Source: Spizellomyces punctatus DAOM BR117 | Lineage: Eukaryota | DNA length: 64,000 nucleotides | Assembly (NCBI GenBank): GCA_000182565.2 | Contig: KQ257458.1 | Direction: 5' to 3' (one strand) | Shown: piece after piece, positions 4,501 to 37,100 of the stretch | Numbering within the stretch: the first letter of the stretch is position 1 | How the letters are laid out: every line of letters starts with the position of its first letter | Position numbers and translations under genes: made by a program | The notes under the pieces: generated by a model | The model's input: only the letters and a program-made list of their open reading frames with translations | Databases searched by the model: none | What the model was told of the DNA's origin: nothing

Positions 4501-4625
4501 GCGACTTTTGAAAGGTCTGGGATTGGAAGGAAGGTGAATGTTCGGATGATAAGGTCGGGAGGAAGGGAAGCTATCGTTTTCGGAGGTGCTGCGGCCGCTG
4601 GTGGTGGGTCCTTGGAACGTCGCAT
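1520..4625 (-). CDS. RCY1: Recyclin-1: F-box plus Sec10-like domain protein (multi-exon)
   Basis: N-terminal F-box (IASLPPDLIIRTFTFLPIPDLSKVAQVSRRF) in ORF 3075-4625; Sec10-like helical C-terminus across ORFs 2635-2925, 1902-2564 (KKSFERLLDDSVANGMDKSIQVL) and 1520-1786 (LIYDLNRYY). Confidence 0.85.
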
Positions 4626-5056
4626 TGTGAGGTCAGTGGATTCTCCGGCGCGCCGGACGCGATGCAGTCTAGTTTGTCCGTCTTCAGAGAAAATAAAAAC
4701 TAGAATTCTATCCTATGAAGACCTTTGCAGTTTCTCCACCGTTTACTGTACTTGAGATAAAACAGTTTCTTGTGTCAAGAAACAAGGTTAAAAGGCACCG
4801 TAAACCGTAAACCCAGTGCTGGCAAGTGCATGTGGACATGGGGTAAGCATACTAAGCCATTTACCGCGTGAATCCCTCCGTTTGTCGCAAGCCACGTATT
4901 TTGACAATTATAATAGTCCCATCTCTATTCCTTGTCAAGAGCACACTACAAACAACATTACTATACAATGTTAAATACAAGTAAATTCATATTTAGCGCT
5001 TCAACTGAACTAAAAAGTGTTCGTTGAGCATCATCCAATTCAGAAGCGTTCTTCAT

Positions 5057-8000
5057 CTATTTGACAGGACCATATCCCTGATAGCTACCGTGGTAGGTGG
5101 ATCCAGCTTCAGAAGATGAAACTGAGTTCGAGAATTGATGGACAAGCTGCTGTGGCCGAGTGGGCGAATAGCGTCCTTCGGCATAGTACGTCTGACCCGC
5201 CAACAAATCAGCATGACTACTTTCTGTTGGCGATGGGCTCGGAGTGCGTGGATGATACTCGGCCATTTGCTTTCCTTTGGCAACGTTCCGTCGCCAGGCC
5301 CGTTCGTATTCCTCCCAACGTTTTAAACTGACTTTGCTCCCGTCAAATGTGCCTCCTTCGTTTCCGTGGCCATTCTTTTCCGACGCACCGCCTGCACCGG
5401 TCACTTGTCTGGTTGCGCCCCAGGAAAAGTCATCAAAGTGCCAGAAGGCATAGACCGGTAGGACAAAGTTCCAAATAGGCAATGCCAAAATGTAGACACC
5501 CATCCACATTATGTACTGCCAGCGCCGGAATGAGAGGACCACAATGAGCGATGGGAAGAAGATGACAAAGAGAAGTGTGCCAATGTTCAGCCATTGCCCA
5601 GGGTCGGCGTCCTTATTCACGTTCGATACTATTGCATTGATGATTAGGTAGATGGTTGTCAGGATGGAGGCGGGAAGCACGGCGGTAGAGATGAGATCGA
5701 GGAGGACAATAAACTAGAGGGCAAGAAAAGCAATCAATATGGCACCCTGCACGCATTATACTCTTGATTGATGGCTTACCTGCATGGAAAAGCAAAAGGT
5801 ACCACAGAGATTGTTCACCAACACCAACTCCATCAAATTGTGAATGGTCGAATTGATCCATCTACGCCTCTGGCTCAACAAGGTAGCAAAGTCGTCAGGA
5901 ACCACAGTCTTGCAGACCGCACGGGGGATAAACACCATCTTCCGATTTGTGAATGTCCGCAGCATCAAGGTCGTCAAAAATCGGTCTTCACCCAGCAGCA
6001 ACAAATTCTTTTGGTGCAGTGTGTCAACTTCGTTTGTGGAATACGTCTCCACTACATCAGGGTTCGCCAAAATGGGTACCCATTCCCCGTCCTTGCGTGC
6101 TTTGATCCGGTACATGCAGAAACAGCCCGGCAGACATGTGACACCACCAAAGACACTTTCAAAAGCTTTTCCGAGGTGATGAGAAATGTAATACTCAAAG
6201 ACTTGGATCATCGTGACCCACGACTGAGTTTTGTTTGCAATTCGAGTTTCACCGCACAGACCCATGATCAACTGATCGTTGTGCATGGCGTTGATCATGA
6301 GCCGCAGTGAGTCCGGTGCAACTTTGGTATCGGCGTCCACCATGAGCACAATTTCAAAAAAGTCTGGGGTGACGCCCATGAGATGATGGACCTTGCGGAA
6401 CAAGTCAAAGTCCAGGGGGGTCATTCGGTCATTCAAGAGAACGCGCGTGAAAAAGTTCATTAGAATGAGCTGAGAGTCACGCTTTCCACGGTTGCCTGGC
6501 TTGGCTTCGCTCGCTTCTTCCGGTGTCCCACACTTGATCACCAAGATGGTCGGAACGCGGTGACCGGCGTGCGCTAAACGTATATATCAAATGAGAACAA
6601 TATCGAAAAAGGTGCACAAACCAGTGCTAAACTTACAGAAATGACCGACATAAACTCTAGCCATGTTGTGCTGCTTCGAACCAGACGCAACGGCAATATA
6701 CGAATACGGCTTTGGGTTGTCTCCAAAGGTCTGATCGATTTCAATCATATCAAGTAACAAGTCCGGTGTACTCTTTGGATTTCCTTTACCCGTAATCAGA
6801 CCATCAGCGATAATAAATAACAACTTTCTGCTATCGGTATAGTCCGTTGCAGCCATAGACTCCATCGTAGTTCGAAGAGAAGCTTCTCCCTCTGAGTAGC
6901 ATGTCACAAGAAGGACCGTGTAGAGATCCAAGCCAATGTCGTTGGGATTCATAATGTCCATCTTTTTACGATCGCTTATGTAGGTCAGTTCCGTGTCGTT
7001 GGACCTGTTTGCATATCCCACAGCAGCTGCGCTCGCGAATTGATTCGGAGTTCGTGCAAGACGATGTGATATGAACCAGTCAAAGATCACGGCCATGACA
7101 AATCGGGACAGAAGTACGCCAAGAACGATAACAGCAACAATGATCGAAAACAGGTACGAAATAATACATGACGCATCCTGTGCAGCGATCTGTCCAGCGA
7201 CGTACTTGTCAACCAAACAGTCGAATGCCTCCCTATTCATGGCAAATTCGGGAAGGTTGTTCAAAATACGTGTTGCCTCTCGACGATTCCTGATTCTTCG
7301 CAGCACCGCATCAACCGGATTGTTTGGTAGTGGCTGTCGGCCGAACTGGTCAAAGTAGGGTTTCAAATTCAAGACGCTGTCTTTGACAACCACGTAGCCT
7401 CGAGCTTCGATCTCGTCCCAAGTGTAGGCAACAAGAGGATCTACCGATTCTCCGCCATCTAATCGATCAAAGGGCTTCAATCCACTGCCAGCAAGCTGCC
7501 GACAATTACCGGCCTGCTGACATGGACTCTGAACGAACGCAAACGGGTATGTTGTGGCGTTCAGCTGCTGACAAGCTGCGACAGGTGGTTGTTGGAACAG
7601 ATCCGAAAGATCACTGCCACGAGGGTTGGTAAATTCGGGCCCTAGAGCCGGATTTGTCCTATACATAGTCCCAAAAACAATGATCCCTCCTGTAATATGA
7701 TGTGAGTGCGTGACAGTGACATTACTCTGCGTCTTTGGGCGAGCTTACCAGCAGCATCGATAGGGACTGGGGCGCCAGTCCCTGTTGGACACAGCAGAGG
7801 ATTCAATGCTACAATGAAGAACACCACGAATGCACACAGGATGACGATGATCCAGCACAGGGTGACCTTCTCCCTCCAGGCCTGCTGTGGACCTGCCCCT
7901 TTTATGTTGCAGCAGTTAAGGCAAAAGGCAGGAAAACAGCATGTCATCATCTTTGAGAAGATTGTCCATGTATCAAATTCGCTTTTGGCAAAGATATTTG

Positions 8001-10770: not shown

Positions 10771-13700
10771 ATGTTCTCTGCCACACGCATGAAAGACGCA
10801 GGCCCACATGATGCTATGAGCATGCAAGAGTTGCGAAGTCGAATGTTTGAATCATTGCGAACTGCTGGCGTCGCTGACAAGCTTAAAGTATATATATTGA
10901 CGCGGGGTTTCCTGTTTAACAAACATGATGCTGAAGAGACTTACCTTCCTTACAGTCCCAACTACGCGCAAAGATTGTTGCCGAGCTCAAGCTACGAGTC
11001 CATGCACATGCTCTTGGGAAAGGTCCAAATAGGGGATCTGGACTCGACGACACTGGCAGCACAAAAGGCCGGCTGTTGCACCAAGTGCTCGATAGCATGC
11101 TTGTAGACTACCTTAAGGCGCGTGGTTTTGATTTTACCTTGTCAGTGTTTCTGCCTGAAAGTGGGTTGAATCAGAAGAATCAGGTAGGAAGGCATTTTTT
11201 GGACTCTGGCTCTAGACCACATGGTGCATCAGCGCAGCTGCTGATGCCTGGAACGATAGATATTGTCGCAGGAAGATATTATGCAGGCACTACATATGGA
11301 TAATCACACAGTATTCTTTCGCGAGCTGGTAAGTAGCTGTTTGTCTATGTTGAGTTGGACCATCGCGCAGTATTTATCTCAGGGTCTTCCACAAGAATGC
11401 GTTGATGAAGTTTCAAGATTCAGGTGTGCAGATTGCAGCTATCAAATAAATCTGGATTTGCTATTTATACGAGCAAAAGTACTTCTCGTTAATCTACTGA
11501 CCAGTTTGATACGAATCGCTGACCTGCCCGTTGCGGACAAGGACGTGCAAACGGATTTGGATATTGAGGATTTTCTAGGTGCGTCGCCATTTTGCAATGT
11601 AATTGAGTGTCGTCAGCTGATGAATTTAGTGAATGCAAAGATTCCAAGTTCCGAGAAACCGACAGAAACGTGGCACAGCGAAAGCAAGATCAGGCAAGAC
11701 TTCACGCATTGGCAGTGGAAGAGCGCATACTTCGGTATCAACAGGAAGTAGAAAGCCGACTAAGAATAGAAATGGAGCAACAGGTACCGCGCGCAGGGCC
11801 CAGTATCCCTTATTTCATAATGTGCACAATGCATCAGCCGCTTATGCCACCTCTTTGCAGCTTACCCAGTTCCGAAGTATCGAGCTTGCTCAAATGAGGG
11901 TCGAAGAAAAGAAGAAATACCAAAGCGATATGTCACGGTTGAAAACCGACTTCGAGCAAAAAACTGTCGAATTGCAGGAAAAGGCTACAACCTTACTGGA
12001 ACAGGAGAGAGTACGCTTAGCCGAGCGAGAGAAGGTGACTACTGCAGTAAACTGCCGATAAAGAACGGGAAAGGTGACCCCAACACTAAAACAACCTCAG
12101 GACTTGGAGAAACATAATATGGATCTACGCCAGAAGTTGTTGGAGGAAAATAATCGGGCGGTAATGAAGGAGGCCACACTACGGACTGAGGCGGAGCTAA
12201 TGGCCAAGGAAGTAAAGTTGGAACGCGACGCTGTACAGCGTCGGTATGACGAGGCCTTAGCGCAGCTTTCCCAATTGCAGAATTTGAAGGAAAAGTATTC
12301 TGAAAAGTTGCAAGAATCTATGGCGCAGTAAGTGGATTAGGTACTTAACAGTATGAAATATTATGATAAATAACTTGTGGTTGGGGTTGAACGATAGGTA
12401 TAAAATCGACACAAACAGAGAGTACAGCAACTTGGTGTCGAGTGTTGAGATTGAGAAGGCGAAATTGGAAGGTATAGTTCGTTTCTTGCATGAATTGCTT
12501 GAACCCCATCCATTACATTCCTCATCAATATGTGCAGCTGAGCGCGCAATGCTCCGTGAAAAAACCAGCGCCGTGGAAAAAATGTCAGCTCAGGTTCAAC
12601 GCGCGCAACAAGATATGGACGACATACAGGACCAACTGAAAGAAGCACGGGCACAAGCTCTCAGGTGGCGACAGGAGAAAGAGGAAGCCGAGCATACTGT
12701 TAAAGATCTGTCGCTTCAGGTATTCCTCGTGTGGTAATGATCGATCTTGTGGTGTGACTGACATGTTGAGCTACCTGCCGGTACAGCTTATGTCACATAA
12801 AACATCATCGGCTTTAGAGTTCGAGATTCAAAGTTTGAAACAGTATGTTTGACGCTGCAAGGGCCAGTATTGTGCATAAGGTTTTCTAACGACATCGTAG
12901 GCAACTGGTAGAAGCTGAAAGAATGGCTGAACGACGACAAGAAGGTTCGCATTATAATTTGTGGACTAGATAATCATCACCTTTTGTTCACCGAATTTGG
13001 ACGCAGACTACCAATCACTCCTCAAAACTCTCATGTTACCAAATGATGACGTACAAAAAGAACTGGCCAAATGTCGTCGATCTGAAGCGAAATGGCAGCG
13101 GGAATGTCAAAACCTTGTGATGCGACTTGACAGCGAAGTGCGTTGTTTGAAGTCACATGTTGTGGATCGCACATGGCCGCTCACACACTTTCTTAGCTCA
13201 ACCGCAATGAGGAACTACAGCGAAAATGCGAAGATAGCGTTCTTCAGGTTAAAGAGCTTAAGCGAGAAAACGCTGATTTGAGACTGGTACTACACCAGAC
13301 TCGAGAAGGTAAAATGTTGCAATTTCTAAAAATGTGACATTTCTCCGCGTACCGAAACGGTTTTTGGCTTCTACAGCTTTGAATCATCAGATAGCTCAAG
13401 ATTCTGTCATTGACTTTAGGAGCAACAATCAGCCCCGCAGGTAGTCGTCCTTCAATCCCCGTCACTGTCGCCATACTATCAAAATTGCTAAGCAACTTAT
13501 ATAGCGACTTTTTGCCAGATCCACNNNNNNNNNNNNNNNNNNNNNNNNNNNNNNNNNNNNNNNNNNNNNNNNNNNNNNNNNNNNNNNNNNNNNNNNNNNN
13601 NNNNNNNNNNNNNNNNNNNNNNNNACCAGCTGGACCTGCACTGTAGCGACTTCCCAAAGCTAGACTCCCAGAAGTCGACACGCTTCACACACCGGAAGTC

Positions 13701-16860: not shown

Positions 16861-19800
16861 ATGGAGTACAGCATAACCCTCTCGGGATACTGTGACCCGC
16901 ACGTTATACACTTCAACCCACGAACCGCACTGGTTATTCAGCGAGTCCGTCGTGTGGACAACCCAAACCAGACTGTAATATGCAAAGGCAATACCTTCTT
17001 CGACGAAGAAGAAAATATCAAGCTGAAACATGAATACGAAATCCTCCATCTCATCCACAGCAACTTGGCAGAAATTGAGCTGACAAGAACACAGAACCAC
17101 ACACATTCCTCTGGAACATCAAGAATACTTGCGTCCGGGAATTATTCCCGAGGGGAGCCGCTCACTCCCGTATCGGAGGATTCTTCGTTGACCCTCACAT
17201 CACCAAACACCAGCAGCACCCGACACAAACCCGGTGGACGACGACCTAGGAGCACTAGCCTCAGCCATGACAGCATTGACGGACATTTGTCAGACAGAAT
17301 TGTTAAGCCAATTTCCTTGGAAGACGTCAATGGACAATATTTTCTGATACTGGAAGACTACGGCGGCATGTCTCTACGGGAATTCGCATTGGGCAAGCGA
17401 GTGCCACGAAAAAACCAGAACACTGAATCGCCGCCAGTGAACCTCACAACGGCAAATTTAGATTTTGAAAAGACAAACTCCACCATCACCCTCCAAGCAA
17501 CCACAAGGTCGACTAATTGGATTGGAAGACTTCCTGCATATCGCTACGCAACTCGCAGAAGCGCTTGACATTGTCCATGCTGCCCAAGTCGTACACAAAG
17601 ACATTAATCCCGACAATATCGTGGTGAGGCGGGATAAGGGCCGCATAGGGGCTCAATTGATAGACTTCAACCTTGCCGAAGTGACAGATATGGGTACCCA
17701 GCCAACCCAGCGGAATTATTTGGAAGGGACTTTGGCTTACTTGTCACCAGAACAAACGGGAAGAATGCAGAGAGTAGTGGATTATCGGACAGGTAATGCT
17801 GTTAATGCCATGCATTGAACGAAAATATACTTACGCCTGCACGGATAATGTAGACTTCTATAGCTTGGGAATAACACTTTGGGAGGTGCTTGTTGGAAGT
17901 CCACCTTTTCAGTTTGACGACGCTACGGTATGGTTATAGGATGCGTTTACGAACACAGTAATTGAAACTGACAACTCTCCAGGAGTATGTACATGCCCAC
18001 CTCGCTAAGGAGATTGAGCCTGCAAATCTGCATGATCCACTCATTCCAAAGGCGTTTTCCGATATCATTAACAAAGTGGGTGTCGTTGCTTTTTCCTAAC
18101 CCCGACATTCTTTTTTCATTAATTATTGGACAACTTTTATAGCTAGTTAGCAAGGCGCCCGAAGCCCGCTATCAATCGGCATCAGGACTTCGTTTTGACT
18201 TTATGACCTGTATGCGGCGACTAAAAGAAGCTAAAGCTGCCAGACTCTGCGCAAAAGATGAAAAATTGTCAGATTTTGACATAGCCCAGATCTTCAATGA
18301 CTTTGAGTTCGATATCGCCTCCCGCGATTATTCACATCATCTCAACATTCCAGATAAACTCTATGGACGTGACCGGGAAACCAAAGAATTGCTTACGTCC
18401 TTTGAGAATGTTGCATGCGGAAAGAGTCGCAGTGAACTAGTACTAGTGTGCGGTGGAAATGGAGAGGGAAAGAGCTCCTTGATTAATCATCTCAGAAAGC
18501 ATGTAATGAGGAATCGTGGTTTTTTTGGTGAGCTGAAGAAGACTTAAAGATACGTCCATCGAGCAATGAGGTTATAACAAATTTGCCTTGAACATAGTGC
18601 GTGGCCAGTACACGGAATACAATCGGGATAAACCATTCGGAGGACTCGTACAAGCGCTAGATGAACTCATTCGCCAGCTCCTGGGAGAAACTGCTGAAGC
18701 GATGGAGAGATGGCAAAACTGTCTGAATACTACCTTGGGCCCAGAGATTTTGGCGATCGTTACGGACGTTCTTCCAGATTTGGAAATGATAGTGGGACTT
18801 CAGCAGTCTGCTGAATTGCGAGTGGATGCCACATCAGCTGAGCAGACGTCCTTCATTCGTGCTATGCAAGCTTTAATTGGCTGCTTTGCGCAAGCCGAAC
18901 ACCCACTGGTGGTCTTTTTGGATGATCTACAGGTACAGTTCTTCGTGAAAGAGCAGCTTAATGATTCAACATTCTAATTCCCCCGCTCTATGCTGGTAGT
19001 ATGCCGAGTCCGCTTCGCAAAAATTGCTGCAAGCCATTTTATTCGACAGGAGAATAGGCCATTTGCTGATAGTCGCAACACTGCCCAGCGGAAGTCCAGG
19101 AGCTGCACTGGGAGCTGCATTTGGTCCAACCGTTCAACGAATCCAGTTTGAGGCCCCTCAAAGATTACGTCGAATCGAGCTAGGGCCGCTTACTAATGCG
19201 GCGCTACGAGAAATGCTTTCCGATACTCTTAAACCCGCAGCTGAGGATATTGACGTACTGGCATCCCTAGTTTCCCGAAAGACAATGGGAAATCCACTTC
19301 ATGTCCGTGAGTTTCTTCGCTACGCGGAACAGCAAGGGTTGATCTATTTCAATGAGGTTGTTGGTGGGTGGGCTTGGGATGTTCATGAAATGGAGCGGCA
19401 GACTGTGTTGAGCGAGAACGTCGCGGACTTGCTGTTGACAAGATTGCGCCAGTTCTCGCCCGAAACTCAGACGTTACTGCAACAAGCAGGTAAGTAAACA
19501 TTTGTATCATCTTCGAATTCTTGTTATTTTAACGATCTTTGTAAATTCCTCTAGCATGTATTGGCGACTCGTTTGACCTTCGATTGCTATCGTTTCTTTC
19601 TGAGATTAGTATCGTCCAAGTGGCGACGTTGCTATGGGCGGCTGTTAAGGAGGGATTTCTCCTGCCACAATCACAAGAACCTCCACTTGCCCGCTCATTG
19701 TCAACAATCTCGAGGAGCTCCTCAGGATCCATCAATTCGCAAAATCAGAACCATTTCCGACCAGGACATAGGTCGTCCCTGTCCCTTAATAAATCCGTGG

Positions 19801-22800
19801 GAGGCATGGTCATGTCATATAAGGTACTGGATGGTCCACATTCAGCTCCTGATTGGGTGGAAACTAACGAGATCACCTACGACAGTTCTGCCACAATCGA
19901 CTCCACCGGGCTTGCTATGATATGATCGACCCTGAGGTCCGAAGAAAATGGCACTTGCAAATCGGCAGGTTATTGCGGCGGAACTTGAGCGAAGAAGAAA
20001 AGCAGGAGAACGTTTTCACTTTGGTCGCTCAATACAATGAAGTACTCGATCTTTTGACAGATCGCGAAGAGCCAGCTTATGTTGCTCGGTTAAACTATGA
20101 AGCTGGACTACGAGCGAAAAAATCAAATGCGCATCATGCTGCCCGACGATATTTTAGCATTGCCCAGTCACTACTTGGCGAGGATGATGAAGCCTGGAAG
20201 GTCAACTATGAGCAGATATTTAATATTAAAAAGGCTGTGGCGCAAGTCAATCTTGTCGAAGGTCTTTACGACGAGGCAACAGCTATACTGAAGGATCTGT
20301 GTCGCCGGGCAACGAGTGTTGGCGATCAGCTAACAGCAAGCAGCATACTCGTCAGCGCATACCATATTCAAGGGAGATTTAACGACATCATGGAAATGGG
20401 ATTTAAGGAGTTGAAAGCCTTTGATATTCCAGCTCCAGAAAACGAGCAGGATGCCATATCAATGGTCAGAGCAGAAATTAGCGAGCTTGAGCGATTAATA
20501 GCTGGTCGCAGTGAGGAGGAAGTAGCGAGAGAAGTCCGTCCTTTGGAACCGACTGTTCAGATGCTGCAGACGGTGCTGCTCTCTATCGGAAGCGCAGCGG
20601 GTTCCCTCGGACGATTATATCAATGCCAGTATTTCTACGTAAAGGTAATAAGGATTAGGTCCTTTGTGTGTGTACAGACTAACCGAAGAACTCTCCTTCA
20701 TAGGGTTGCGTGCTAGCTATGCAAAAGGGCCTCAGTCATCGAAGTGCCGAACTTTTTGCATTTGTTTTACGAGCATACGCTGGATGTCTGCCGGAGCCAG
20801 ACTTTCCACGCATGAGATGGGTATCGAAACTCTCCTTTCTCCTGATGGACAAGGCTACTCTGGAGATTCAAGCACGTGCCCGTCTGGGTTTGCTCATGAA
20901 TGGATATATCTATGTTGCCAGTTTCAAGTCCTTTGAAGAAAACGTAGAGCGCTGCATTACTGCAGGCATCGAAGCTGGGTACTACTCGGTGGTCATATAC
21001 GCGATGTGCACGTTCCCCGGGGTCCTACTTTCGTATGGACGCCCTGCTGCCGCATACAGCGAATGGCACAAAAGGTATCATCCATTTATGGAGAAATTCA
21101 AAGGATTCTTCCTGAATGTATGGAACGGTACGATCGCGGAGTTAGACGCCTTGAGCTCTGGGATCGAATGCGTATACCAGAACAGAGATGTTATGGCGAC
21201 CGGAATGACTCGTGCTCAGGTATATTATTTTCGCCTTGTAAATGCGCTGCTTTTTGAGCGCGAGGATAGGCGGATGCTGCTGGAGCAGTATAAACAAGAA
21301 GACAAAATGAATGCTTACATGGGCATACCAAGGTGGGTGTATGTGAGATCGCGCAACTTTCTCACTTGATAATATCTGATCCGAGCGGGAAATAGATACA
21401 TTGATATCTTCGTGTGGCAAGTGATAATCGCAGCATCGGAGTATAATCTTCCTAACCAGGACCGGAAACAACTTCTAAAAGAAATTGATGATGCATGTGC
21501 TATGGTCAAGAAATTTGCAGAGCAACCACCCCAGGAGATTATGTGCAAATATTACCTTGTGTCCGCCGAAAGAGTAAGCCGATCATTTACTTGTAATTGA
21601 GTCTGTAGCAGAAGATAATCATCCTCAACTGGTCAGGCAAGAATCCTCGGAGATATGACGGAAGCGAGGAATTTCTACGATAAGGCATTGGATGCCGCTC
21701 ATGAGCACGGTTTTCGGTTTCATGAAGCCCTCATAACAGAGCGCTACGGTCGTTTCTGGCTAGAAATGGGATCGAAGCGTCTAGCACGATCATGCTTACA
21801 CGACGCTTACTTTCTCTGGCACTCTTGGGGGAGCGAAGGAAAATGTAAACAATTGCAAGCACGCTACGCCGATATAATGGACCTCCACCTTCTGAACAAG
21901 GGTCTTTCTGGAACTCGGTTTGGCAGCCTTCATGGTACCACTCAACGTTCGTCCATTACGGAACAGCACAGCTCTACCACCGTCGACTTGGATTTAACCA
22001 CAGTGCTCAAGGTCACGCAGTCGATCAGCAATGAGACCAGCTTGGAAATTTTGCTGACCAAGATTATAAAGTTTGTCATGGAGAATGCCGGAGCAGAAAA
22101 AGGGATGCTCGTGCTGCAGCAAGAGGGAAAGCTGTTAATTGAAGCACTCGGAGTGATTGATGAAGGTGGCGAGCATCACGAGGTTCTTCAACATGTTCCG
22201 ATTGAGAAAGCGACGCACGAACAAGGGGTGCCACTATCTGTGGTCTACTATGTATTCCGTTCCCGCGAACCTCTGGTTTTGGTTGATGCAGTCGCGGATC
22301 AGACGTACGGTAAAGACGCATACGTCACCGAGCGGCAAACTAAAAGCATTCTGTGCTGTCCTATCGTACATCAAAACATGGCTACGGGGGTGGTCTATTT
22401 AGAGAATGACCTCCAGACTGGCGCATTTACTGCCGACCGTCTCGAGCTCATTCAGTCTTTAATGGCTGCTGCATCGATGTCGATTGAAAATGCGAAGCTT
22501 GCCAAGACCAACACTGAATTGACAGCTGCTTTGCGAGATTCTTCAACGAAGGCAACGCCACGATATAACCTCGACGGGCCCATCAAGAAGACAATTGACA
22601 TGCTCCAAGGGTTCAAATTCAGGCTACCGCCCGGTGATCCCGGCATTCGACAAATTGACTTCATTATGAAAGCATTGACCTCAACAGACTTCTTCTCCTC
22701 GAATATTGATGAGATCAACGATGAGACGGGAAAAGGCATCGATTCCGATACTAAAGTATGGATTGAAAGCTCCTTGCTTCAGAAGGAACCTAGTCGAACA

Positions 22801-24908
22801 AGGCGGGCAGATGCCAAAGAGCATATGTTTGCGAAGAAAGCTGAGGATATTTCGAAGGCATCTCTGAAAGTGATGGAGAGTCACGTAAGGCCGAGCAAAG
22901 AGATTTCGTCCATCAATATGGCAGAAGTGAACGCTCTTTTGGAGAGATCCACTTCGTTCGATTTCAACATTTACGACCTTGCGGAGGCAACTAATGGCAG
23001 GCCGCTTTTTTTCCTGGGAGTCCATCTTTTGGAATATTGGGGCTTACTGCAGCATTTCTCGCTGGACGAGATGAAGCTGCGGGCGTTTTTTGAGCAGATT
23101 GAAGGCGCATACCATCCTCTGCCATATCATAATAGGTATTTCTGTTGAGTGTTTGTGTGTACGCCAGCCCCAACTGATCATCATGTGTTTAGTACACATG
23201 GAGCGGATGTACTTCAAACCGTAAATATGCTTCTCTTAAGCGACCCCAAAATGGCAGCAAACTTTACCAAGATGGAGATATTTGCTGCATGTATTGCAAG
23301 TGCCGTACACGACGTGGACCACCCTGTGAGTAGCTCGTCGTAAGCGAAGTTGCTGTAATCGGTGGCTTACCGCATCTGTTATTCACTTTGTAGGGGCTGA
23401 ACAACAACTTCCTGGTTCAATCTTCTCATCCGCTCGCCATTTTCTATAATGATATGTCGGTATTAGAGTTCCATCATGCTGCCAAAGCGTTTGAAATTGC
23501 ACAACAACCGGAAACAAACGTGTTTGACGGACTGAATAATGACCAGTATCGAGAAGCACGGAAACTCATTATTAGCATGGTGGTTGCAACTGGTGTGTAT
23601 ATGACATGTTATTCGCTAGCTATTTTATTGATTTACCATGGAATCCCCAGATATGGCACAACATTTTCACTACATCAACAAGCTGAAGAGCAAGATCGCT
23701 GCTTCTGCTTTGAATTGGGAAGAATCTGGGGATCGCGCCTTGTTACTGGAGTGTGCGATCAAATGCGCAGACCTCAATAACTCAGCAAAGCCAATCGAGC
23801 AATCACGAAAGTGGGCGTTCCAGGTGATGCAAGAGTTCTTCCTGCAGGTGCGCAAAGCGGAAGTCATTGTGAAATATCCACAATAATGAGAATGACGATT
23901 TGTGCTGCATTAGGGTGACCGTGAACGAAAACTAGGCATGCCGGTTTCGAAATTTATGGATCGATATGATACCAACATTCCAAAATGGTATGTGGGTGGG
24001 AGGGCAAAGAATTTCCACATATTTACGTACTTAATTATTCTTGGTGATGCAGTCAAATAGGATTTATTGACATCCTCGTTGTGCCGCTCTTTGATTCTTG
24101 GTCGCAATGCATTCAGACGGACTTTTCAAGACGATGTATGGACAATATATCTCAAAACCGCAGCCATTGGGAATCCCTCTTGGATAAACCAGAAGCTATC
24201 CCAAATTTCCCCCCACCGCCGGATGAAGAGCGTGAAGACTTCCCCCTAGTTGCCCCATCAACACCCCCGTTTACACCGCAGCAGTATCTCACGGCGCCCA
24301 TCGTAGACAATATGGTGCGAATTGAATCCAAAGAACCTCCTCAACCCGCGCCCGTACGCCAAGATGCATCTGAGGGCGCAGCTGATGGCACCTTTCGATC
24401 TGTCCCTGGAATAAAACTACCAGGGGAGTTGAAGGGAAGATTGAGCAACCCACCGCAACCTATCTCAGCCCCTTCTCCTTCAAGAAATATCATAATTACA
24501 CCACGTAAAACATCAGAAACCACATCCACCACCACCACCCCCATCCCTAAAATCATCCGAAAATCCACATCAGGCGGAAACATTGCTGGGTTCGCAGAGG
24601 GAGGCAGCCGTGACGTCTGGGCACCATCAAATTCTGGACGAGAAAGAAATTATACAGCACCAGTTTCAGCCCGACGACGGTCGAGTGCAGGTGTTGGCGC
24701 ACTAGCGTCGGATTCAACAGTGCCCAAAATACCCGGAAAACTACTATTACCAGCGTTACCAAAATCTACCTCGGCCAGTAGTTTTGACCGAGAACTAGAT
24801 AACACTCCCGACGGATTGCAAAACCTCCCAAAACCACGTCCAATAGCACGATCTGGCCAAGATGGCAAGCCTCCAGGAAACGGCCGACCAAAAGGAGTAA
24901 CGTCGTGA
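16861..24908 (+). CDS. Hybrid Ser/Thr kinase - AAA_16/STAND ATPase - helical repeats - GAF - class I cyclic-nucleotide phosphodiesterase
   Basis: Kinase: HKDINPDNI, LIDFNLA, GTLAYLSPEQTGR, RYQSASGL. ATPase: Walker A GGNGEGKSS, Walker B LVVFLDDLQ, GNPLHVRE. GAF: SISNETSLEILL..KSILCCPI..GVVYLEN..AFTADRL. PDE: YHNSTHGADV, HDVDHPGLNNNFL, VLEFHH, ATDM, IKCADLNN, EFFLQGDRE, QIGFID. GAF and the start of the PDE lie in one uninterrupted ORF (21655-23148). Confidence 0.9.
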
Positions 24909-25366
24909 TATTTCTATGACCTCAATATTTTCAGCTGCTTCCAATTTATTCATTTGCTGTGGTTCACGGGACCGTAGAAAGTAGGGTTTTTTGATTTTGA
25001 TATTTTCTAATATAAGACGATGTGTTGATTGTTGAGGATCTCTTAGTTTGTTTATAATGATTCCGTAAGCGATGTCCAGAGTTGCGGACGCGAGCCGTTT
25101 TCATGGCAACGCCAGGAGGCCAGAGAGCACAGGCAATACTTATCCTTCTCGATAATCTTGGAAATAGCGCAGCACACCTTCTCGCCCTCACTTTGACTGT
25201 TTATTGTACGTGACATGTCGATTGCAGATGGGCACAGGATCTGTTGGCATATTGTAAAGGAATATTCACGCTAGTTTTATCTTCGCGCGCTCTTCACAGG
25301 TACAAGATCGCCGACACGATTACCAGAAACTTGTTTAAACAGTACAATCCCCGCAAGTAGATCAAA

Positions 25367-27458
25367 ATGCAGGTCCCGGTGATGGTTATGAGTAAGTTGA
25401 TGATACGGATGTTTCACCTGTCCTGTACACTGGATTTACGTTTCCCGTGCACTAGACGCGAACATGGAGCGGGAGACAGGCCGAAAAGCCCAGCTCTCGA
25501 ACATCCAGTCAGCAAAGGTGTGGATTTACGTCTGAATTTGCATGGGAAGCATATGGTTGGCGCTGCAGTTATACGTTGCTAATGATGGTGATTGAAGGTG
25601 ATCGCCGATATTATCCGAACGTGCTTGGGTCCCCGCGCTATGTTGAAGATGTTGTTGGATCCCATGGGCGGTATTGTCATGACGAACGATGGAAATGCCA
25701 TTCTACGAGAAGTAGAAGTGGCTCACCCAGCAGCGAAGTCCATGATTGAGCTCGCAAGAACTCAGGATGAGGAAGTTGGAGATGGGACAACTAGTGTGAT
25801 TATCCTTGGTCAGTTCTCAACGGTGATTCTTTTCTGCGCGGCTTTCTCACAGGGACGTGATTTCCAAAACAGCTGGTGAAGTTCTGACCGCGGCACTTCC
25901 TTTTCTGGAGCGTAACATACACCCTATTACCATTATTGGGGCTTACAAGCGCGCATTGGAGGATGCACTGAACATTATGAAGGATATATCAATTGAGGTC
26001 GATATAAGCAACAAGCCGGAAATGATGCGCATTATCAAATCCACTATTGGAACAAAGTTCGTATCGAGATGGAGCGATTTGATGTGCGGACTGGCGTATG
26101 ATGCCGTCAAGACGGTGAACCTGGAGATCGACGGAAAGCGTGAGGTAGACATTAAGCGCTATGCTCGTGTGGAAAAGGTATACTCTATTGAAAAGAGATA
26201 TGTGCTTTTTGGTGCTGAACACCGCGCGTTTTTCAGATACCTGGTGGGGAGATTGACGAGTCAAAGGTTTTGGACGGTATCATGGTCAACAAGGATGTCA
26301 CACATCCCAAGATGCGCAGGAAGATCGAGAACCCTAGGATCGTGCTCCTCGATTGCCCACTTGAATACAAAAAGGGAGAGTCGCAGACGAATGTGGAGGT
26401 GACGGACGAATCGCACTGGTCGCGTCTGCTGGAGATCGAAGAAGAACAGATTAAAGAGATGTGTGACCACATCATTCGCTTGAAACCTGATCTTGTATTC
26501 ACCGAAAAAGGGGTCAGCGGTAGGTATTGTGTGATTCCGGCTGATTCTGTGAACACTACCTGATGATTCGTCTTATAGACTTGGCTCAACATTTCCTGAT
26601 GAAATCCAACATCACTGCTATCCGCCGAGTCCGCAAGACCGACAATCACCGTATTGCTCGGGCCACTGGCGCTACCATTGTGAATCGAGTAGAGGACTTG
26701 AAGGACTCCGATGTCGGCACACAATGCGGTCTCTTTGAAGTTCGCAAGATTGCCGATGAATACTTCACTTTCCTCGAAAAGTGTGAAAATCCTAAGGCTT
26801 GCACAATCTTGCTCCGTGGACCCAGTAAAGATGTTCTACAGGAGATTGACAGGAATTTGCAAGATGCTATGTGCGTTGCCCGGAATGTCATGTTCGAGCC
26901 GCGCCTTTGCCCCGGGGGTGGTGCGACAGAGATGGCCCTTGCCGTCCGCCTCGGTGAGAAGGCGAAAACTATTTCTGGAGTGGAACAATGGCCGTACAAA
27001 GCCGTTGCGGAAGCTTTAGAAGTCATCCCACGTACTTTGGTACAAAACTGTGGTGGAAACGCCATCAAAACATTGACGCAGCTCAGGGTATGAGATTTCT
27101 GTATCGGTTTATCCACCAAGACCTACATTCTGACCTGTTTCTCTTAGGCGAAGCATGCAACCGTGGACAACTTCTCTTGGGGTATTGACGGGGAGAGCGG
27201 CAAGATCGTGGATATGCAAGAATACGGTGTTTGGGAGCCACACGCTGTCAAGGCGCAAACAGTGAAGACTGCTATCGAGTCGGCATGTTTGCTCCTCCGA
27301 GTAGATGACATTGTGTCCGGTTTGTCAAGGAAGGAGGCTGGTGGCGGTGGGCAAGCTCCCGCCATGCAGGAAGCACCTGAGGTGAGGTCACCATAGACTT
27401 TGCATCCAACTCGCGGTTGCTCACTGATTTCTCGTTGCAGGAGGTTGGTGAGCGCTAG
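25367..27458 (+). CDS. CCT3: T-complex protein 1 subunit gamma (CCT3)
   Basis: IRTCLGPRAMLKMLLDPMGGIVMTNDGNAILRE, GDGTTS, VDIKRYARVEK, TAIESACLLLRVDDIVSG; last exon EVGER*, stop 27456-27458. Confidence 0.97.
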
Positions 27459-34127: not shown

Positions 34128-37100
34128 ATGACGATACCGAGCTCAGACGTTCGAAGAGCGTTGGAGAGATACTATTTGGAAATTGCCAGTATTATATTGG
34201 CCCGCCAGAATCCGGCCACGGGATTGGTATGTTTTTTTAGGGTTATAAAGAGTGTGAGCTGGACGACGCCGAAAAAGGTGAAATGTACACGGCATGTCGC
34301 CGGTAACATTGGTGGACAAAAGTCTGCCCAAAGTTATCCTCGATGTTTTCCAACTTAGGGACCATAGGAAAAGCGCGAACAAATAGGAGAGCACGCCGAC
34401 GTTCTCGGTTATTCATGTTTTTCTTTCGGCTTTTTATCTGCAGATACCCGCGTCGGTGGCGATAACCACTCATGGCGATTATCGGGATGCCTGGGTGAGG
34501 TAAGAGAGAGCACTCTCAGCTACGGATAGTATTTTGTGCATTTTCATTTATTGAGGGTTTATCAGAGACAATGTGTATTCGATCTTTGCCGTGTGGGGCC
34601 TGGCGCTCGCATATCGGCGCATTGATGATGATGATGGGAGAGGATGTGAGCGACGTGCTCTAACGCTTGTATGGTGAAACTTTGACGGCTGACGATATGT
34701 TCGGTTATCAGATGAACTGGAGCATGCCACGATAAAGACCATGCGTGGGCTTTTGTCTGCTATGATGCGACAAGCGGATAAGGTGGAACTCTTTAAGAAT
34801 ACTCAAGCTGTTCATCATGCATTACATGCCAAGTAAGGACATGCTGCGGAATAGACCATGTGATTTTGGATGTTCTAATTTACCTTGCAGGTACAATACG
34901 CAAACAGGTGGAACAGTCGTAGGAGATCACGAATGGGGCCACCTCCAACTTGACGCAACCAGTATCTTCCTCCTGGCTCTTGCCCAGATGACGGCAAGTG
35001 GGTTGCGGTTAATTTATACGATGGACGAGGTCCAGTTTGTGCAAAATTTGGTATTTTATATTGAGCGCGCATATAGGTGGGTTGTTTCTGTTTCCGCCTC
35101 TAATTGTGTGAAGATTATTAAGTGTCATCCCTGTACCGCGGATCGTGTTGATGTAGAACTCCTGATTATGGCGTATGGGAGAGAGGAAACAAAGTCAATC
35201 ACGGGCAACCCGAGTTGAATTCGTCGAGTATTGGAATGGCTGTCGCGGCGTTGCAAGCCATCAATGGAATCAACCTCTTTGGAGCAAGAGGTGGACCTTC
35301 ATCGGTACAGAAATAACATACTTTACGCATAGAGTGACTGAGTGACCGACCTCATCGACTGATTCACCAGGTCATACATGTTCTGCCCGACGAACTCACA
35401 CGCAATGCAACTACACTCCAGTCCGCCCTCCCGCGTGAATCCGCGTCAAAAGAAATTGACGCTGCCCTGCTTGCTGTGATCTCTTTTCCAGCATTTGCGG
35501 TACATGATCCACAGCTTGTTGCCCGTACGCGGAACGAGATTGTAAAGAAGTTAGGGGGAAATTACGGGTTTAAACGCTTTTTGAGAGATGGCCATCAGAC
35601 CGTCTTGGAAGACACCACTAGGTGCGTTGAGTTATTTAGTGGAGTCTTGTATTTTAGAGACTAAGATCAGATCACCCCATTTGGTAGGCTGCATTATGAC
35701 CCATCGGAGCTCAAGGTGTTTGAAGGAGTTGAGTCGGAGTGGCCCTTGTTCTATACTTACATGATCCTGGATGGGTAAGACGCACACCTTGTTTTGAGAG
35801 TTGAAACCATATCTGACATGCATTTGTGAAGGCTTTTTCGAGACGATTTCGATCAAGTGAGAGAGTATCGTCGAAAGCTTGATCCATTACTCGTCGATTC
35901 AGCAAGAATTCCCAAATTCAACCGTGAACGCATAGCCCACGCATCGCATCCATCTTCCATGACACGTTCCCCATCTGTCACAAAGCAAACCCTTCCCCCA
36001 GCTCATATGCGTCTGGTCCCAGAGTTATTTATCGTTCCCCGCCAATTGGTGGAAGCAGAGAAAGCTCAGCCGGGCTCACAAGAGCGTGTTCCAAATGAGA
36101 ACGTTCCACTTGTTTGGGCGCAGAGTTTATATATTCTGGGTAACTTGATATACGATGATCTCCTATCGCCTGCAGAATTGGATCCACTTGGTCGTAGAAT
36201 TGCTGCTAGTCGTCGTAAGAGCCATTCAGAAGTGGTTGTTCAGGTGGTACTCTTGTCGGAGGATGAAGAGCTCCAAGAAAAGTTGATGAAATTCGGCTTG
36301 GATACGCAGACAGTTCAAAACTGTGCCCCGGTGACAATTTCACCTCCGTCGGCATTGAGAGATGCGTATACCGCTCTAGGCGAGAATCCAAAATTGGTAG
36401 GCACCTGACATTGGCGAAACTAGTAATTGGCTTATAGGCATTGATTGTGCTTGATATCCAGAAATTGACCGGCAGGCCTAAGCGGCCAATTGGTACCCTC
36501 AGCACTTGCAAATTGTATCGCTGCCAGGGGAGGCTTTATGGTGAGGCTCTTGTTGCTGTCTCTACGATACATGTTAGTTTTTTTTAAAATGATCCTTTTT
36601 GTTTATCAGCGTTCACTCCTCACTTTATGGATAAGGAGGAGTTCTATCTTGTCAGCGACAATGACTATTTGGTTAGTCTTTTTGAACAGGAACTATCGTT
36701 TGTCCGAAACCACTGGTTCTCCACTGGACGACCGACGATGGTCGTCATGCTGACACGTGAAATGCTCGGAGGGCTGCGCGGTGCCGAGCAGAAATCCCAA
36801 GGATGGCGCACGCGTTCTGCCCACAGCAGCAAACGCAACCTTCTGAATTTCATGATGTCCTTGCGATCTGGTAATGTCGGTGGCGTCCGGACACGACTCG
36901 GTCGCCTGGGTGATATGATCAATACCGCTTGCATTGAGAGTTTGGACTTCCTTGTGAGTGCTGAGAACAGTGACTACGAGGACTGGGCCACGTTGTTGAA
37001 GGGAGAAGAGACTTGTTTGGAGGCTTCCAGACTGTCGTATTCGGAGCACGATACAGAAGAGACGAGCAAAGAGCGAATACATTCCGCGGGATCGTTACCT

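What the first reader, a model, noticed from the sequence alone, without database searches (positions are those of the whole stretch)
16861..24908. Kinase-STAND ATPase-GAF sensor wired to a cyclic-nucleotide phosphodiesterase instead of a histidine kinase
Seen: one spliced gene with kinase motifs, Walker A/B (GGNGEGKSS, VFLDDLQ), a long helical region, a GAF domain and a complete class I PDE. All metal ligands (YHNSTH, HDVDH, CAD) and the invariant Gln (QIGFID) are present. GAF and PDE share one exon, so the fusion is not a gene-merging artefact. Known: the kinase-AAA-GAF scaffold is typical of cyanobacterial HstK-type proteins and fungal group X histidine kinases (Candida Chk1, S. pombe Mak2/3), which end in HisKA/HATPase, with a receiver domain in fungi. 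No H-box or G-box is visible here. Inference: an output-swapped, NLR-like sensor that turns a signal directly into cAMP/cGMP hydrolysis, a possible signalling system of zoosporic fungi. I do not know of this architecture being characterised.
Basis: partly seen in the sequence, partly recalled or inferred. Interest (0 to 1): 0.92.

Follow-up and report, generated by a model that had tools for sequence, protein, structure and literature searches.

The report
Chytrid STAND–GAF sensor fused to phosphodiesterase
This is a real, intron-rich gene of the chytrid fungus Spizellomyces punctatus that joins a bacterial-type kinase/ATPase/GAF sensor to a PDE4-like cyclic-nucleotide phosphodiesterase; the fusion is conserved across chytrids, sits in databases, and appears never to have been studied.

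Summary
Window 16861-24908 (+) holds one gene of 17 exons and 16 GT-AG introns of 55-70 nt. It matches the annotated 2310-aa Spizellomyces punctatus protein except at three small splice choices.

Pfam finds Pkinase, AAA_16, one GAF and a full PDEase_I domain (2.2e-83), and no HisKA or HATPase. GAF, the following helix, a conserved pre-PDE region and the first PDE metal ligand share exon 12.

All PDE catalytic residues are kept in every aligned chytrid row that covers them. The domain is closest to the cAMP-specific PDE4, PDE7 and PDE8.

The four-domain architecture occurs in 25 of 40 long PDE proteins found. All named ones are Chytridiomycetes, spanning six orders. Scaffold and PDE trees each put the chytrid proteins on one side of a supported branch, which points to one old fusion.

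The scaffold's nearest relatives are cyanobacterial HstK-type proteins, whose outputs are histidine kinase, cyclase or PP2C. An AlphaFold model of the ATPase region resembles STAND proteins such as MalT, Avs3 and Apaf-1.

Regulation, substrate and signal are inferred, not shown. Eight full-text searches found no paper on this architecture.

Verdict: a new variant of a known kind, of moderate interest.

The parts
16861..24908 (+). Whole coding region: 17 exons (16861-17400, 17462-17792, 17854-17927, 17983-18075, 18143-18527, 18598-18932, 19000-19489, 19555-19823, 19886-20644, 20704-21338, 21396-21573, 21637-23135, 23193-23325, 23394-23592, 23651-23847, 23914-23987, 24053-24908)
   Evidence: stop-free 2348-aa model with 16 GT-AG introns of 55-70 nt; equals P0001 apart from three small splice differences, at intron 1, inside exon 8 and at the donor of intron 10; the N-terminus aligns with the N-termini of bacterial and chytrid homologues.
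16861..18190 (+). Atypical Ser/Thr-kinase-like domain. Beta3 Lys in TVICK at 16972-16986, HKDINPDN at 17594-17617, DFN at 17660-17677, SPE at 17738-17752. Long low-complexity insert after helix C.
   Evidence: Pfam Pkinase 4.6e-24 on P0001 145-350. Lys, Glu, HxD, Asn and the DFN Asp are kept in most chytrid rows. The Gly-rich loop is degenerate in chytrid and bacterial homologues alike.
18338..19179 (+). P-loop NTPase core (AAA_16). Walker A GGNGEGKSS at 18452-18478, Walker B VVFLDDLQ at 18909-18932.
   Evidence: Pfam AAA_16 5.2e-28. The AF2 model shows an alpha/beta core at piece residues 1-235. Coordinates.
19195..21906 (+). Helical/winged-helix-like module (19195-19921) followed by a long alpha-solenoid of about 30 helices (19931-21906): the presumed sensor arm of the STAND module.
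   Evidence: AF2 with alignment A2: mean pLDDT 83.1, pTM 0.70. Foldseek best hits are a STAND-TPR protein 6mfv (5.7e-9), Avs3 8dgc, MalT 8bob, ORC/Cdc6, SAMD9, Apaf-1, CED-4 and NOD2. A weak TPR_MalT match lies below its cut-off.
21637..23135 (+). Exon 12: end of the solenoid, GAF, post-GAF helix, fusion junction, pre-PDE conserved region, and the start of the PDE fold up to YHN.
   Evidence: 499 aa, translated by reference. AF2 model.
22042..22485 (+). Single GAF domain
   Evidence: Pfam GAF 8.8e-13, one stretch. AF2 pLDDT is about 90. Foldseek matches the GAF of the HD-GYP protein 4mcw and of PDE6, PDE5A, PDE10A and PDE2A. By sequence the matches are 4mcw at 5.3e-6 and PDE10A GAF-B at 4.8e-5.
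22432..22548 (+). 39-residue helix leaving the GAF domain, in the position of a signalling helix
   Evidence: AF2 helix at exon-12 residues 266-304.
22519..22566 (+). Fusion junction between the bacterial-type scaffold and the fungal PDE cassette. It lies inside exon 12, with no intron.
   Evidence: similarity to bacterial proteins ends at exon-12 residues 285-309 in 167 of 173 matched rows (median 294). Similarity to PDEs without the scaffold starts at residues 297-309.
22570..22782 (+). Conserved region of about 75 residues upstream of the PDE domain (LDGPIKK ... WIESSLLQ)
   Evidence: Mean identity across 30 chytrid rows is 0.61-0.62, as high as in the catalytic domain. It also matches chytrid and blastoclad PDEs that lack the scaffold, always upstream of their PDE domain (16.6-23 bits). 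No PDB sequence matches it at E<=10.
22957..24188 (+). Class I PDE catalytic domain, exons 12-17. YHN|STH at 23125-23199, HDVDHPG at 23308-23396, LEFHH at 23460-23477, ATDM at 23583-23655, CADLNN at 23764-23781, QIGFID at 24054-24071.
   Evidence: Pfam PDEase_I 2.2e-83, 280 bits. The best PDB match is PDE4D at 4.9e-70, aligned over P0001 1760-2086. The motifs are kept in every aligned chytrid row that covers the site, apart from one N-to-S change in the HNxxH motif.
24189..24905 (+). Ser/Pro/Thr-rich C-terminal tail, poorly conserved
   Evidence: Mean identity to orthologues is 0.07-0.13. No Pfam family.
25033..25038 (+). Poly(A) addition sites, about 125-130 nt after the stop codon
   Evidence: RNA run X7: 3, 3 and 4 reads carry non-templated A runs after 25033, 25035 and 25038, and depth is 16.1 in bin 24732-25025. 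The genome has no A run there.

Best explanation
The gene encodes a large cytosolic signalling enzyme of Spizellomyces punctatus with orthologues across Chytridiomycetes. Its C-terminal half is an intact class I phosphodiesterase of the PDE4/7/8 type, so it most likely hydrolyses cAMP. It is preceded by a conserved region of about 75 residues that other zoosporic-fungal PDEs also carry.

Its N-terminal 1600 residues are a bacterial-type sensor scaffold: an atypical Ser/Thr-kinase domain, an AAA_16 STAND NTPase with a helical/winged-helix module, a long alpha-solenoid arm, one GAF domain and a 39-residue exit helix. In cyanobacteria the same scaffold drives histidine-kinase, cyclase or PP2C outputs.

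Proposed mechanism (inferred): an unknown cue is read by the solenoid and/or the GAF domain. The STAND NTPase converts it into a nucleotide-dependent change of conformation or oligomeric state. The exit helix and the pre-PDE region pass this change to the PDE, raising or lowering cAMP hydrolysis. The kinase domain adds autophosphorylation or a second output.

Shown here: the gene structure, the domains, the intact catalytic residues, the homology, the single old fusion and its conservation. Inferred: regulation, substrate, cue and direction.
For: - Gene model and identity.
- Domains.
- PDE4D alignment with all metal ligands and the invariant Gln.
- Ranking of PDB matches: PDE4 (4.9e-70), then a chain titled only 'Phosphodiesterase' (6ezu, 7.7e-63), then PDE8A and PDE7A (about 3e-62), then PDE1B (1.8e-51) and PDE3.
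- PDE motifs kept in every chytrid row that covers them, of 30 aligned.
- The region between GAF and PDE is as conserved as the catalytic core.
- Architecture in 25 of 40 long PDE-bearing proteins, and GAF plus PDE in 32 of 40.
- Six orders of Chytridiomycetes.
- Scaffold tree: 86 bacterial rows plus one unnamed row sit on one side of a branch with SH-aLRT 100 and length 0.64, and all 32 chytrid rows sit on the other side.
- PDE tree: 30 fusion PDE domains form one clade, support 95/91.
- A sharp junction inside exon 12.
- STAND fold.
- Bacterial relatives with histidine-kinase, cyclase and PP2C outputs behind the same GAF.
- A polyadenylated + strand RNA end just after the stop.
Against: - No biochemical or genetic data exist for any member, as far as eight searches show.
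- RNA reads gave no splice joints and almost no depth over the body of the gene, so one continuous transcript rests on gene structure and conservation, not on reads.
- Walker B acidic residues vary outside Spizellomycetales. The Walker A Lys is changed in 4 of 30 rows, and GK[ST] is intact in only 20 of 30. An ATP-hydrolysis switch is therefore not conserved in every member.
- The kinase HxD or DFN Asp is lost in some paralogues.
- The GAF ligand is unknown. The domain is only weakly like the cNMP-binding GAFs.
- cAMP preference rests on family similarity only.
- No fold of GAF, linker and whole PDE together could be made.
Confidence: 0.6

Rival explanations
1. The kinase domain is the main output. 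The PDE acts as a built-in feedback or local cAMP sink, or the GAF-PDE half senses cyclic nucleotide and controls the kinase. On this reading the protein is a cAMP-coupled Ser/Thr kinase rather than a signal-gated PDE.
For: The catalytic Lys, helix-C Glu, HxD Asp, Asn and DFN Asp are kept in most chytrid rows. The kinase C-lobe is among the better conserved parts, at 0.51-0.61 identity. The whole bacterial family keeps this domain whatever the C-terminal output is.
Against: The Gly-rich loop is degenerate throughout the family. Some paralogues have lost the HxD or DFN Asp while keeping every PDE residue. The PDE and the pre-PDE region are the most conserved parts.
Confidence: 0.2
2. The PDE is constitutively active. 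The scaffold only anchors, oligomerises or localises it, for example at the flagellar base, without ligand-gated control. The NTPase and GAF are then relics.
For: Walker B and partly Walker A are degenerate in several orthologues. No ligand can be named for GAF.
Against: About 1600 residues of scaffold are retained, with recognisable motifs, across six orders. The GAF exit helix and the junction region are strongly conserved. Spizellomycetales keep canonical Walker A and B.
Confidence: 0.12
3. Artefact: two neighbouring genes (a scaffold gene and a PDE gene) merged by gene prediction, or bacterial contamination in the assembly.
For: Some orthologue models are clearly over-merged, carrying ABC-transporter or alcohol-dehydrogenase domains in P0131-P0133 and P0127. 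Others are split, such as P0010 plus P0011. No splice joints were seen in reads.
Against: The junction lies inside a single 1499-nt exon with no stop. The same order of domains is found in 25 proteins from independently annotated genomes. The scaffold half holds 11 of the 16 spliceosomal introns. Neighbours are ordinary fungal genes. Chytrid scaffolds sit apart from all bacterial rows.
Confidence: 0.02

Closest known systems
Cyanobacterial HstK-type 'dual' or 'trifunctional' Ser/Thr kinase / ATP-binding / sensor histidine kinases (cbSTKIII family; PMC2176072, passages read)
   Same: The same N-terminal scaffold in the same order: atypical kinase with a degenerate Gly loop, AAA_16, helical arm, GAF and exit helix. 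Over P0001 1-1300 the match is E about 1e-154 at 33-36% identity, and about 40% identity over the solenoid end plus GAF. The family already swaps outputs between histidine kinase, cyclase and PP2C.
   Different: The output here is a eukaryotic class I PDE with its own upstream region, not HisKA/HATPase. None of the 103 bacterial rows carries PF00233. The gene has 16 introns. Chytrid sequences lie across a long, fully supported branch from the bacterial ones.
Fungal group X hybrid histidine kinases (Candida Chk1, S. pombe Mak2/Mak3; these names and their peroxide-sensing role are recalled; the domain description comes from PMC6324907 passages)
   Same: Large fungal proteins with an N-terminal Ser/Thr-kinase-related domain and a GAF domain. 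One chytrid orthologue was even auto-named 'Chk1 protein kinase'.
   Different: Group X proteins end in HisKA-HATPase-receiver, and this one ends in a PDE. Sequence kinship was not tested. No group X protein appeared among the named rows of the best 120 hits or among the 10 of the best 150 that I looked up, and most of those rows carry no name.
Mammalian PDE4, and PDE7/PDE8: cAMP-specific class I PDEs
   Same: The catalytic domain aligns end to end with PDE4D (4.9e-70) with identical metal-binding His, Asp and Glu residues and the invariant Gln. It has a conserved region upstream of the catalytic domain, loosely comparable in position to the PDE4 UCR modules (the UCR comparison is recalled, not tested).
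   Different: The upstream region matches no PDB sequence. The N-terminal regulatory part is a 1600-residue STAND-GAF scaffold rather than UCR1/UCR2. Substrate preference is untested.
GAF-regulated PDEs (PDE2, 5, 6, 10, 11; trypanosome PDEB, recalled)
   Same: A GAF domain N-terminal to a class I PDE and linked by a long helix. The GAF model matches PDE6, PDE5A, PDE10A and PDE2A GAFs by fold.
   Different: There is one GAF, not a GAF-A/GAF-B tandem. That GAF is of the HstK lineage. The catalytic domain is nearest PDE4/7/8, and no PDE2/5/6/10/11 chain is among the 60 best PDB matches. This looks like an independent GAF-PDE invention.
STAND NTPase sensors (MalT, Avs, Apaf-1/CED-4, NLRs)
   Same: A P-loop core, a helical/winged-helix module and a repeat arm. 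Foldseek best hits are 6mfv, Avs3 and MalT. Walker A and B are intact in this protein.
   Different: The effector is a cyclic-nucleotide hydrolase at the C-terminus, behind a GAF domain. Ligand-driven oligomerisation is unproven here.

Membership tests
Class I cyclic-nucleotide phosphodiesterase (Pfam PDEase_I, PF00233) | Match to the family model above its curated threshold | tested here: met
   280.1 bits against a cut-off of 24.8, covering profile positions 1-229 of 238.
Class I cyclic-nucleotide phosphodiesterase (Pfam PDEase_I, PF00233) | Metal-site residues (HNxxH, HDxxH, E, D) and the invariant substrate-binding Gln | tested here: met
   Aligned identically with PDE4D. Kept in every chytrid row that covers the sites, apart from one N-to-S change in HNxxH.
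Class I cyclic-nucleotide phosphodiesterase (Pfam PDEase_I, PF00233) | Hydrolysis of cAMP and/or cGMP | not testable with these tools
   Needs an enzyme assay. A cAMP preference is inferred only from the PDE4/7/8 ranking.
HstK-type kinase-AAA_16-GAF sensor histidine kinases (cyanobacteria) | N-terminal atypical Ser/Thr-kinase domain, then AAA_16 plus helical region, then GAF | tested here: met
   The match over residues 1-1300 is E about 1e-154.
HstK-type kinase-AAA_16-GAF sensor histidine kinases (cyanobacteria) | C-terminal HisKA/HATPase_c transmitter | tested here: not met
   No such Pfam match at E<=0.01. A PDE domain sits there instead.
Fungal group X hybrid histidine kinases | Ser/Thr-kinase-related domain plus GAF in the N-terminal region | tested here: met
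   Domain content, compared with the description in PMC6324907.
Fungal group X hybrid histidine kinases | HisKA-HATPase-receiver output | tested here: not met
Fungal group X hybrid histidine kinases | Sequence or phylogenetic grouping with Chk1, Mak2 and Mak3 | not tested
   No group X sequence could be obtained. None appeared among the named rows.
STAND NTPases | P-loop NTPase with Walker A and Walker B | tested here: met
   GGNGEGKSS and VVFLDDLQ. AAA_16 at 5.2e-28. The motifs are degenerate in some orthologues.
STAND NTPases | NTPase core, then helical/winged-helix module, then repeat sensor arm | tested here: met
   AF2 pLDDT 83.1. Foldseek hits to 6mfv, Avs3, MalT, Apaf-1, CED-4 and NOD2, with low TM scores because the proteins are multi-domain.
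STAND NTPases | Nucleotide-dependent oligomerisation on ligand binding | not testable with these tools
   Needs biochemistry or cryo-EM.
GAF-PDEs of the PDE2/5/6/10/11 type | Tandem GAF-A/GAF-B and a catalytic domain of that clade | tested here: not met
   One GAF stretch. The 60 best PDB matches are PDE4, 7, 8, 1 and 3 plus two chains titled only 'Phosphodiesterase'; none is named PDE2, 5, 6, 10 or 11.
GAF-PDEs of the PDE2/5/6/10/11 type | Cyclic-nucleotide binding by the GAF domain | tested here: inconclusive
   Only weak similarity to PDE10A GAF-B (4.8e-5). A generic GAF fold. The pocket residues were not analysed.

The most novel reading that the evidence does not exclude
Chytrids own a lineage-specific second-messenger device: a STAND (NLR-like) nucleotide switch plus GAF sensor that directly gates cAMP breakdown. 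It was built once, in the ancestor of Chytridiomycetes, by welding a bacterial-type HstK scaffold onto a fungal PDE cassette. That cassette carries its own upstream transmission module, and the same cassette is also wired to ANF-receptor-type sensors in chytrids. If so, the PDE cassette is a general plug-in output of zoosporic fungi, and this protein would be the first STAND ATPase whose effector is cyclic-nucleotide hydrolysis, possibly steering zoospore swimming or encystment.
Probability: 0.4. Interest if true: 0.7.

Novelty: new variant of a known kind. Interest (0 to 1): 0.5.

Why it matters
cAMP and cGMP signalling in zoosporic fungi is known mainly from rhodopsin-guanylyl cyclases. How the signal is switched off is barely studied.

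This family offers a conserved and probably regulated PDE across chytrids, including relatives of amphibian pathogens such as Polyrhizophydium and Homolaphlyctis.

It is also a clean natural experiment in modular signalling. The same sensor scaffold drives histidine kinase, cyclase or PP2C outputs in bacteria and a eukaryotic PDE in chytrids, with a sharply defined junction.

It gives a testable case of a STAND switch coupled to a small-molecule-hydrolysing effector, and a possible source of engineerable PDE modules.

Tried and rejected
- No whole genome is held for this window, so paralogues in the same genome, such as a histidine-kinase version, could not be sought.
- Sequencing runs: no RNA holder was listed in the index. 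Laying X7 (about 6% of the run read) gave 159 reads with 3'-end bias and no joints. X1-X3 are unspliced, genomic-type contigs, and one carries vector-like letters. Splice junctions and transcript continuity therefore remain unconfirmed by reads.
- Complex prediction on two copies of the GAF-helix-linker part gave no verdict (score 0.02). It is not evidence either way.
- The pre-PDE conserved region has no PDB sequence match at E<=10.
- The ESM Atlas returned only generic AAA_16 clusters.
- A fold of GAF, linker and whole PDE together was not made. Only exon 12 (by reference) and residues 400-1450 were folded. How the linker packs on the catalytic domain stays open.
- Fungal group X sequences could not be obtained. 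Whether the chytrid scaffold is sister to group X or a separate bacterial acquisition stays open.
- The tree is a quick LG+G4 search with SH-aLRT only and with long-branch warnings. I had wrongly labelled the unnamed P0295 as chytrid, and it nests among bacteria.
- Rejected as explanations: a merged gene model and bacterial contamination (see the rivals).
- Supplementary files of papers were closed. The histidine-kinase catalogues in the supplements of PMC6324907 and PMC5285503 might list these chytrid proteins.
- All three homologous-protein searches are used. Proteins shorter than 1270 aa or longer than 4043 aa carrying this PDE were not searched, so absence outside chytrids is not proven.

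Full report
**Observation**

The + strand between 16843 and 24908 carries a chain of open frames. They can be joined by 16 GT-AG introns of very uniform length, 55-70 nt, into a stop-free CDS of 7047 nt, or 2348 aa. It runs from ATG 16861 to the stop at 24906-24908.

Single open frames already hit Pkinase, AAA_16, GAF and PDEase_I.

A database search with exon 12, translated by reference, returned a 2310-aa protein (P0001) that is 100% identical. NCBI names it 'serine/threonine protein kinase [Spizellomyces punctatus DAOM BR117]' and UniRef names it 'Phosphodiesterase'. My model equals P0001 except for 12, 24 and 2 residues at three alternative splice choices in poorly conserved stretches.

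Pfam on P0001 gives:
- Pkinase at 145-350.
- AAA_16 at 406-599.
- One GAF at 1461-1608.
- PDEase_I at 1822-2048 (2.2e-83, nearly the full profile).
- No HisKA or HATPase.

YHN|STH and HDVDHP|G are each split by an intron.

Exon 12 (21637-23135) holds the end of the helical region, GAF, the exit helix, a conserved pre-PDE region and the start of the PDE fold, including its first metal-site His. The fusion is therefore not a product of exon joining.

**RNA evidence**

The run index listed no RNA holder. One RNA run of the same species label, X7, was laid with about 6% of it read. It gave 159 reads, mostly at the 3' end. Depth is 16.1 in 24732-25025, with the first mate on +. Three, three and four reads carry A runs after 25033, 25035 and 25038, and the genome has no A run there.

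This shows a polyadenylated + strand RNA ending about 125-130 nt after the predicted stop. No joints were listed and depth over the gene body is below 1, so splice sites and continuity are not shown by reads. Runs X1-X3 are unspliced genomic contigs.

**The PDE half**

Against PDB sequences, the region 1760-2086 aligns with PDE4D at 4.9e-70, followed by PDE4B, PDE4A and PDE4C. Next come a chain titled only 'Phosphodiesterase' (6ezu, 7.7e-63), PDE8A and PDE7A (about 3e-62), PDE1B (1.8e-51) and PDE3.

The printed alignment shows the HNxxH, HDxDHPG, LExHH and ATDM motifs and the invariant Gln (QxGFID) in register.

In a MAFFT alignment of 30 chytrid homologues, these motifs are kept in every row that covers the site, apart from one N-to-S change in HNxxH. 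A working hydrolase is therefore very likely. A preference for cAMP is an inference from the nearest families.

**The scaffold half**

Residues 1-1300 match cyanobacterial 'trifunctional serine/threonine-protein kinase/ATP-binding protein/sensor histidine kinase' proteins at E about 1e-154 and 33-36% identity. Of the 120 rows listed, 109 are bacterial and 11 are chytrid.

Exon 12 matches the same bacterial family at about 40% identity over its first 58-62%. By my reading of that table, among its 103 bacterial rows:
- The C-terminal outputs are HisKA/HATPase, with or without a receiver domain.
- 13 rows carry Guanylate_cyc (PF00211).
- 18 rows carry SpoIIE/PP2C (PF07228).
- None carries PF00233.

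The family is very large: 7528 clusters at 50% identity reach E<=1e-30. Ten of the best 150 were looked up. The named ones were cyanobacteria, an anammox planctomycete and the chytrid Homolaphlyctis.

The degenerate Gly-rich loop of the kinase domain is a trait of the whole family, bacteria included. The beta3 Lys and the helix-C Glu are kept. In chytrids the HxD Asp, the Asn and the DFN Asp are kept in most rows.

Walker A and B are canonical in Spizellomycetales. Elsewhere Walker B varies, GK[ST] is intact in 20 of 30 rows, and the Lys is replaced in 4.

AlphaFold2 on residues 400-1450 with a 34-row alignment gave pLDDT 83.1 and pTM 0.70. The model shows an alpha/beta P-loop core, a helical/winged-helix-like module and a solenoid of about 30 helices.

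Foldseek's best PDB hits are a STAND-TPR protein (6mfv, 5.7e-9), Avs3, MalT, ORC/Cdc6, SAMD9, Apaf-1, CED-4 and NOD2.

**GAF and junction**

AlphaFold2 on exon 12 gave pLDDT 75.3. It shows TPR-like helices, a confident GAF fold, a 39-residue exit helix (residues 266-304), two helices in the conserved region, a disordered stretch, and then the first PDE helices.

The GAF domain resembles the GAFs of the HD-GYP protein 4mcw and of PDE6, PDE5A, PDE10A and PDE2A. No ligand can be named.

The stretch between GAF and PDE is as conserved among chytrids as the catalytic core, at 0.61-0.62 mean identity.

Its 75-residue core (window 22570-22782) also matches zoosporic-fungal PDEs that lack the scaffold. 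It always lies upstream of their PDE domain:
- A Quaeritorhiza PDE, 22 bits.
- A Blastocladiella PDE, 23 bits.
- Three ANF-receptor-PDE fusions, 16.6-17.9 bits.

It matches nothing in the PDB.

Similarity to bacterial proteins ends at exon-12 residues 285-309 in 167 of 173 matched rows. Similarity to the other PDEs begins at residues 297-309. The fusion point therefore maps to about 22519-22566, inside exon 12. The protein is a bacterial-type sensor scaffold welded to a fungal PDE cassette that brings its own upstream module.

**Distribution and history**

A search with the PDE region among proteins of 1270-4043 aa returned 40 proteins:
- 25 carry kinase, AAA_16, GAF and PDE.
- 2 more carry kinase, GAF and PDE.
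- 5 carry GAF and PDE without the kinase. These are shorter, and some are clearly truncated models.
- The other 8 are different PDE architectures.

All named carriers are Chytridiomycetes, and two are unnamed. Taxonomy look-ups place them in Spizellomycetales, Rhizophlyctidales, Lobulomycetales, Chytridiales, Cladochytriales, Rhizophydiales and Quaeritorhizaceae.

The scaffold tree has 119 rows. Two of 121 rows were dropped for short coverage. It was a quick LG+G4 search with SH-aLRT only and with long-branch warnings. It puts 86 bacterial rows plus the unnamed P0295, which I had mislabelled as chytrid, on one side of a branch with support 100 and length 0.64. All 32 chytrid rows lie on the other side.

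The careful PDE-domain tree has 36 rows, with 5 dropped as partial. It groups the 30 fusion PDE domains in one clade, support 95/91, apart from the other fungal PDEs.

Both trees recover Spizellomycetales with Rhizophlyctis. One fusion in an ancestor of Chytridiomycetes, inherited vertically with some duplications, is the simplest reading.

The scaffold has 11 introns and is not nested in any sampled cyanobacterial subgroup. A recent transfer or contamination is therefore excluded. An ancient bacterial origin, or common descent with fungal group X kinases, remains open, because group X sequences could not be obtained.

**Mechanism**

Shown here: an intact PDE, an intact and conserved scaffold, a conserved exit helix and pre-PDE module, and bacterial homologues in which the same scaffold precedes other catalytic outputs.

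Inferred from what is established for STAND proteins, which act as ligand-driven nucleotide switches, and for GAF-linked enzymes, where the signal passes through a long helix (PMC1592074, abstract and passages):
- A cue read by the solenoid and/or GAF changes the nucleotide state or oligomeric state of the NTPase.
- Through the helix and the pre-PDE module, this changes PDE activity.

The kinase domain may autophosphorylate or form a second output. The main rivals are a kinase-centred enzyme with a feedback PDE, and a constitutive PDE on a relic scaffold. A homodimer test of the GAF-helix part gave no verdict and is not evidence.

**Literature**

Eight full-text searches found no paper describing a kinase-AAA_16-GAF-PDE protein. 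Passages read:
- PMC5285503: histidine kinases of early-diverging fungi, with no mention of this architecture.
- PMC6324907: description of group X.
- PMC2176072: the cyanobacterial dual kinases HstK and Pkn40/41, and a GAF-cyclase variant.
- PMC1592074: the signalling helix.

Supplements were closed. All other papers were seen as search listings only.

**Verdict**

The finding is a lineage-wide, database-known but apparently unstudied output variant of a known modular sensor family, joined to a known enzyme class. That makes it a new variant of a known kind. I score interest at about 0.5, because output swapping is common in this family and function is wholly inferred. The sharply defined chimera and the shared PDE cassette make it a good experimental target.

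Noticed in passing
Stored proteins P0140, P0141, P0144 (chytrids Dinochytrium, Phlyctochytrium bullatum, P. planicorne); not in the window: Chytrids also have ANF-receptor-type ligand-binding domain (PF01094) to PDE fusions. Their PDE carries the same upstream conserved region as the window's protein. This suggests a reusable PDE output cassette wired to different sensors.
   Followed up: partly
window 42898-47400 (-): A 1501-aa open frame with no Pfam family. It lies in the stretch with the strongest strand skews of the window: AT skew -0.18 to -0.29 and GC skew 0.15-0.22.
   Followed up: no
window 18509: In RNA run X7, ten molecules with the first mate on the - strand end at 18509, inside exon 5. 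This could be internal priming, an antisense RNA or duplicates.
   Followed up: no
window 13525-13624: A run of 100 N, that is an assembly gap.
   Followed up: no
window 25592-26560 (+): The gene directly downstream translates to a sequence that looks like a CCT/TCP-1 chaperonin subunit. I recognised this from the translation. It was not tested.
   Followed up: no
window 3078-4712 (-), 6590-7744 (-), 36588-38975 (+), 50202-52088 (-): The neighbours are ordinary fungal genes: an F-box/Sec10-like protein, a chitin synthase, a phosphorylase-kinase-like protein (Glyco_hydro_15, ILEI, KPBB_C) and a protein kinase.
   Followed up: partly
Stored proteins P0127, P0131-P0133, P0010/P0011: Several orthologue gene models in other chytrid genomes look over-merged, with added alcohol-dehydrogenase or ABC-transporter domains. 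Another is split into two records. Counts of 'architectures' taken from databases need care.
   Followed up: no
Chytrid paralogues P0125, P0126, P0135, P0139, P0131-P0133: Some paralogues have lost the Walker A Lys or the kinase HxD or DFN Asp while keeping every PDE residue. This hints that the scaffold's enzymatic steps are dispensable in part of the family.
   Followed up: partly
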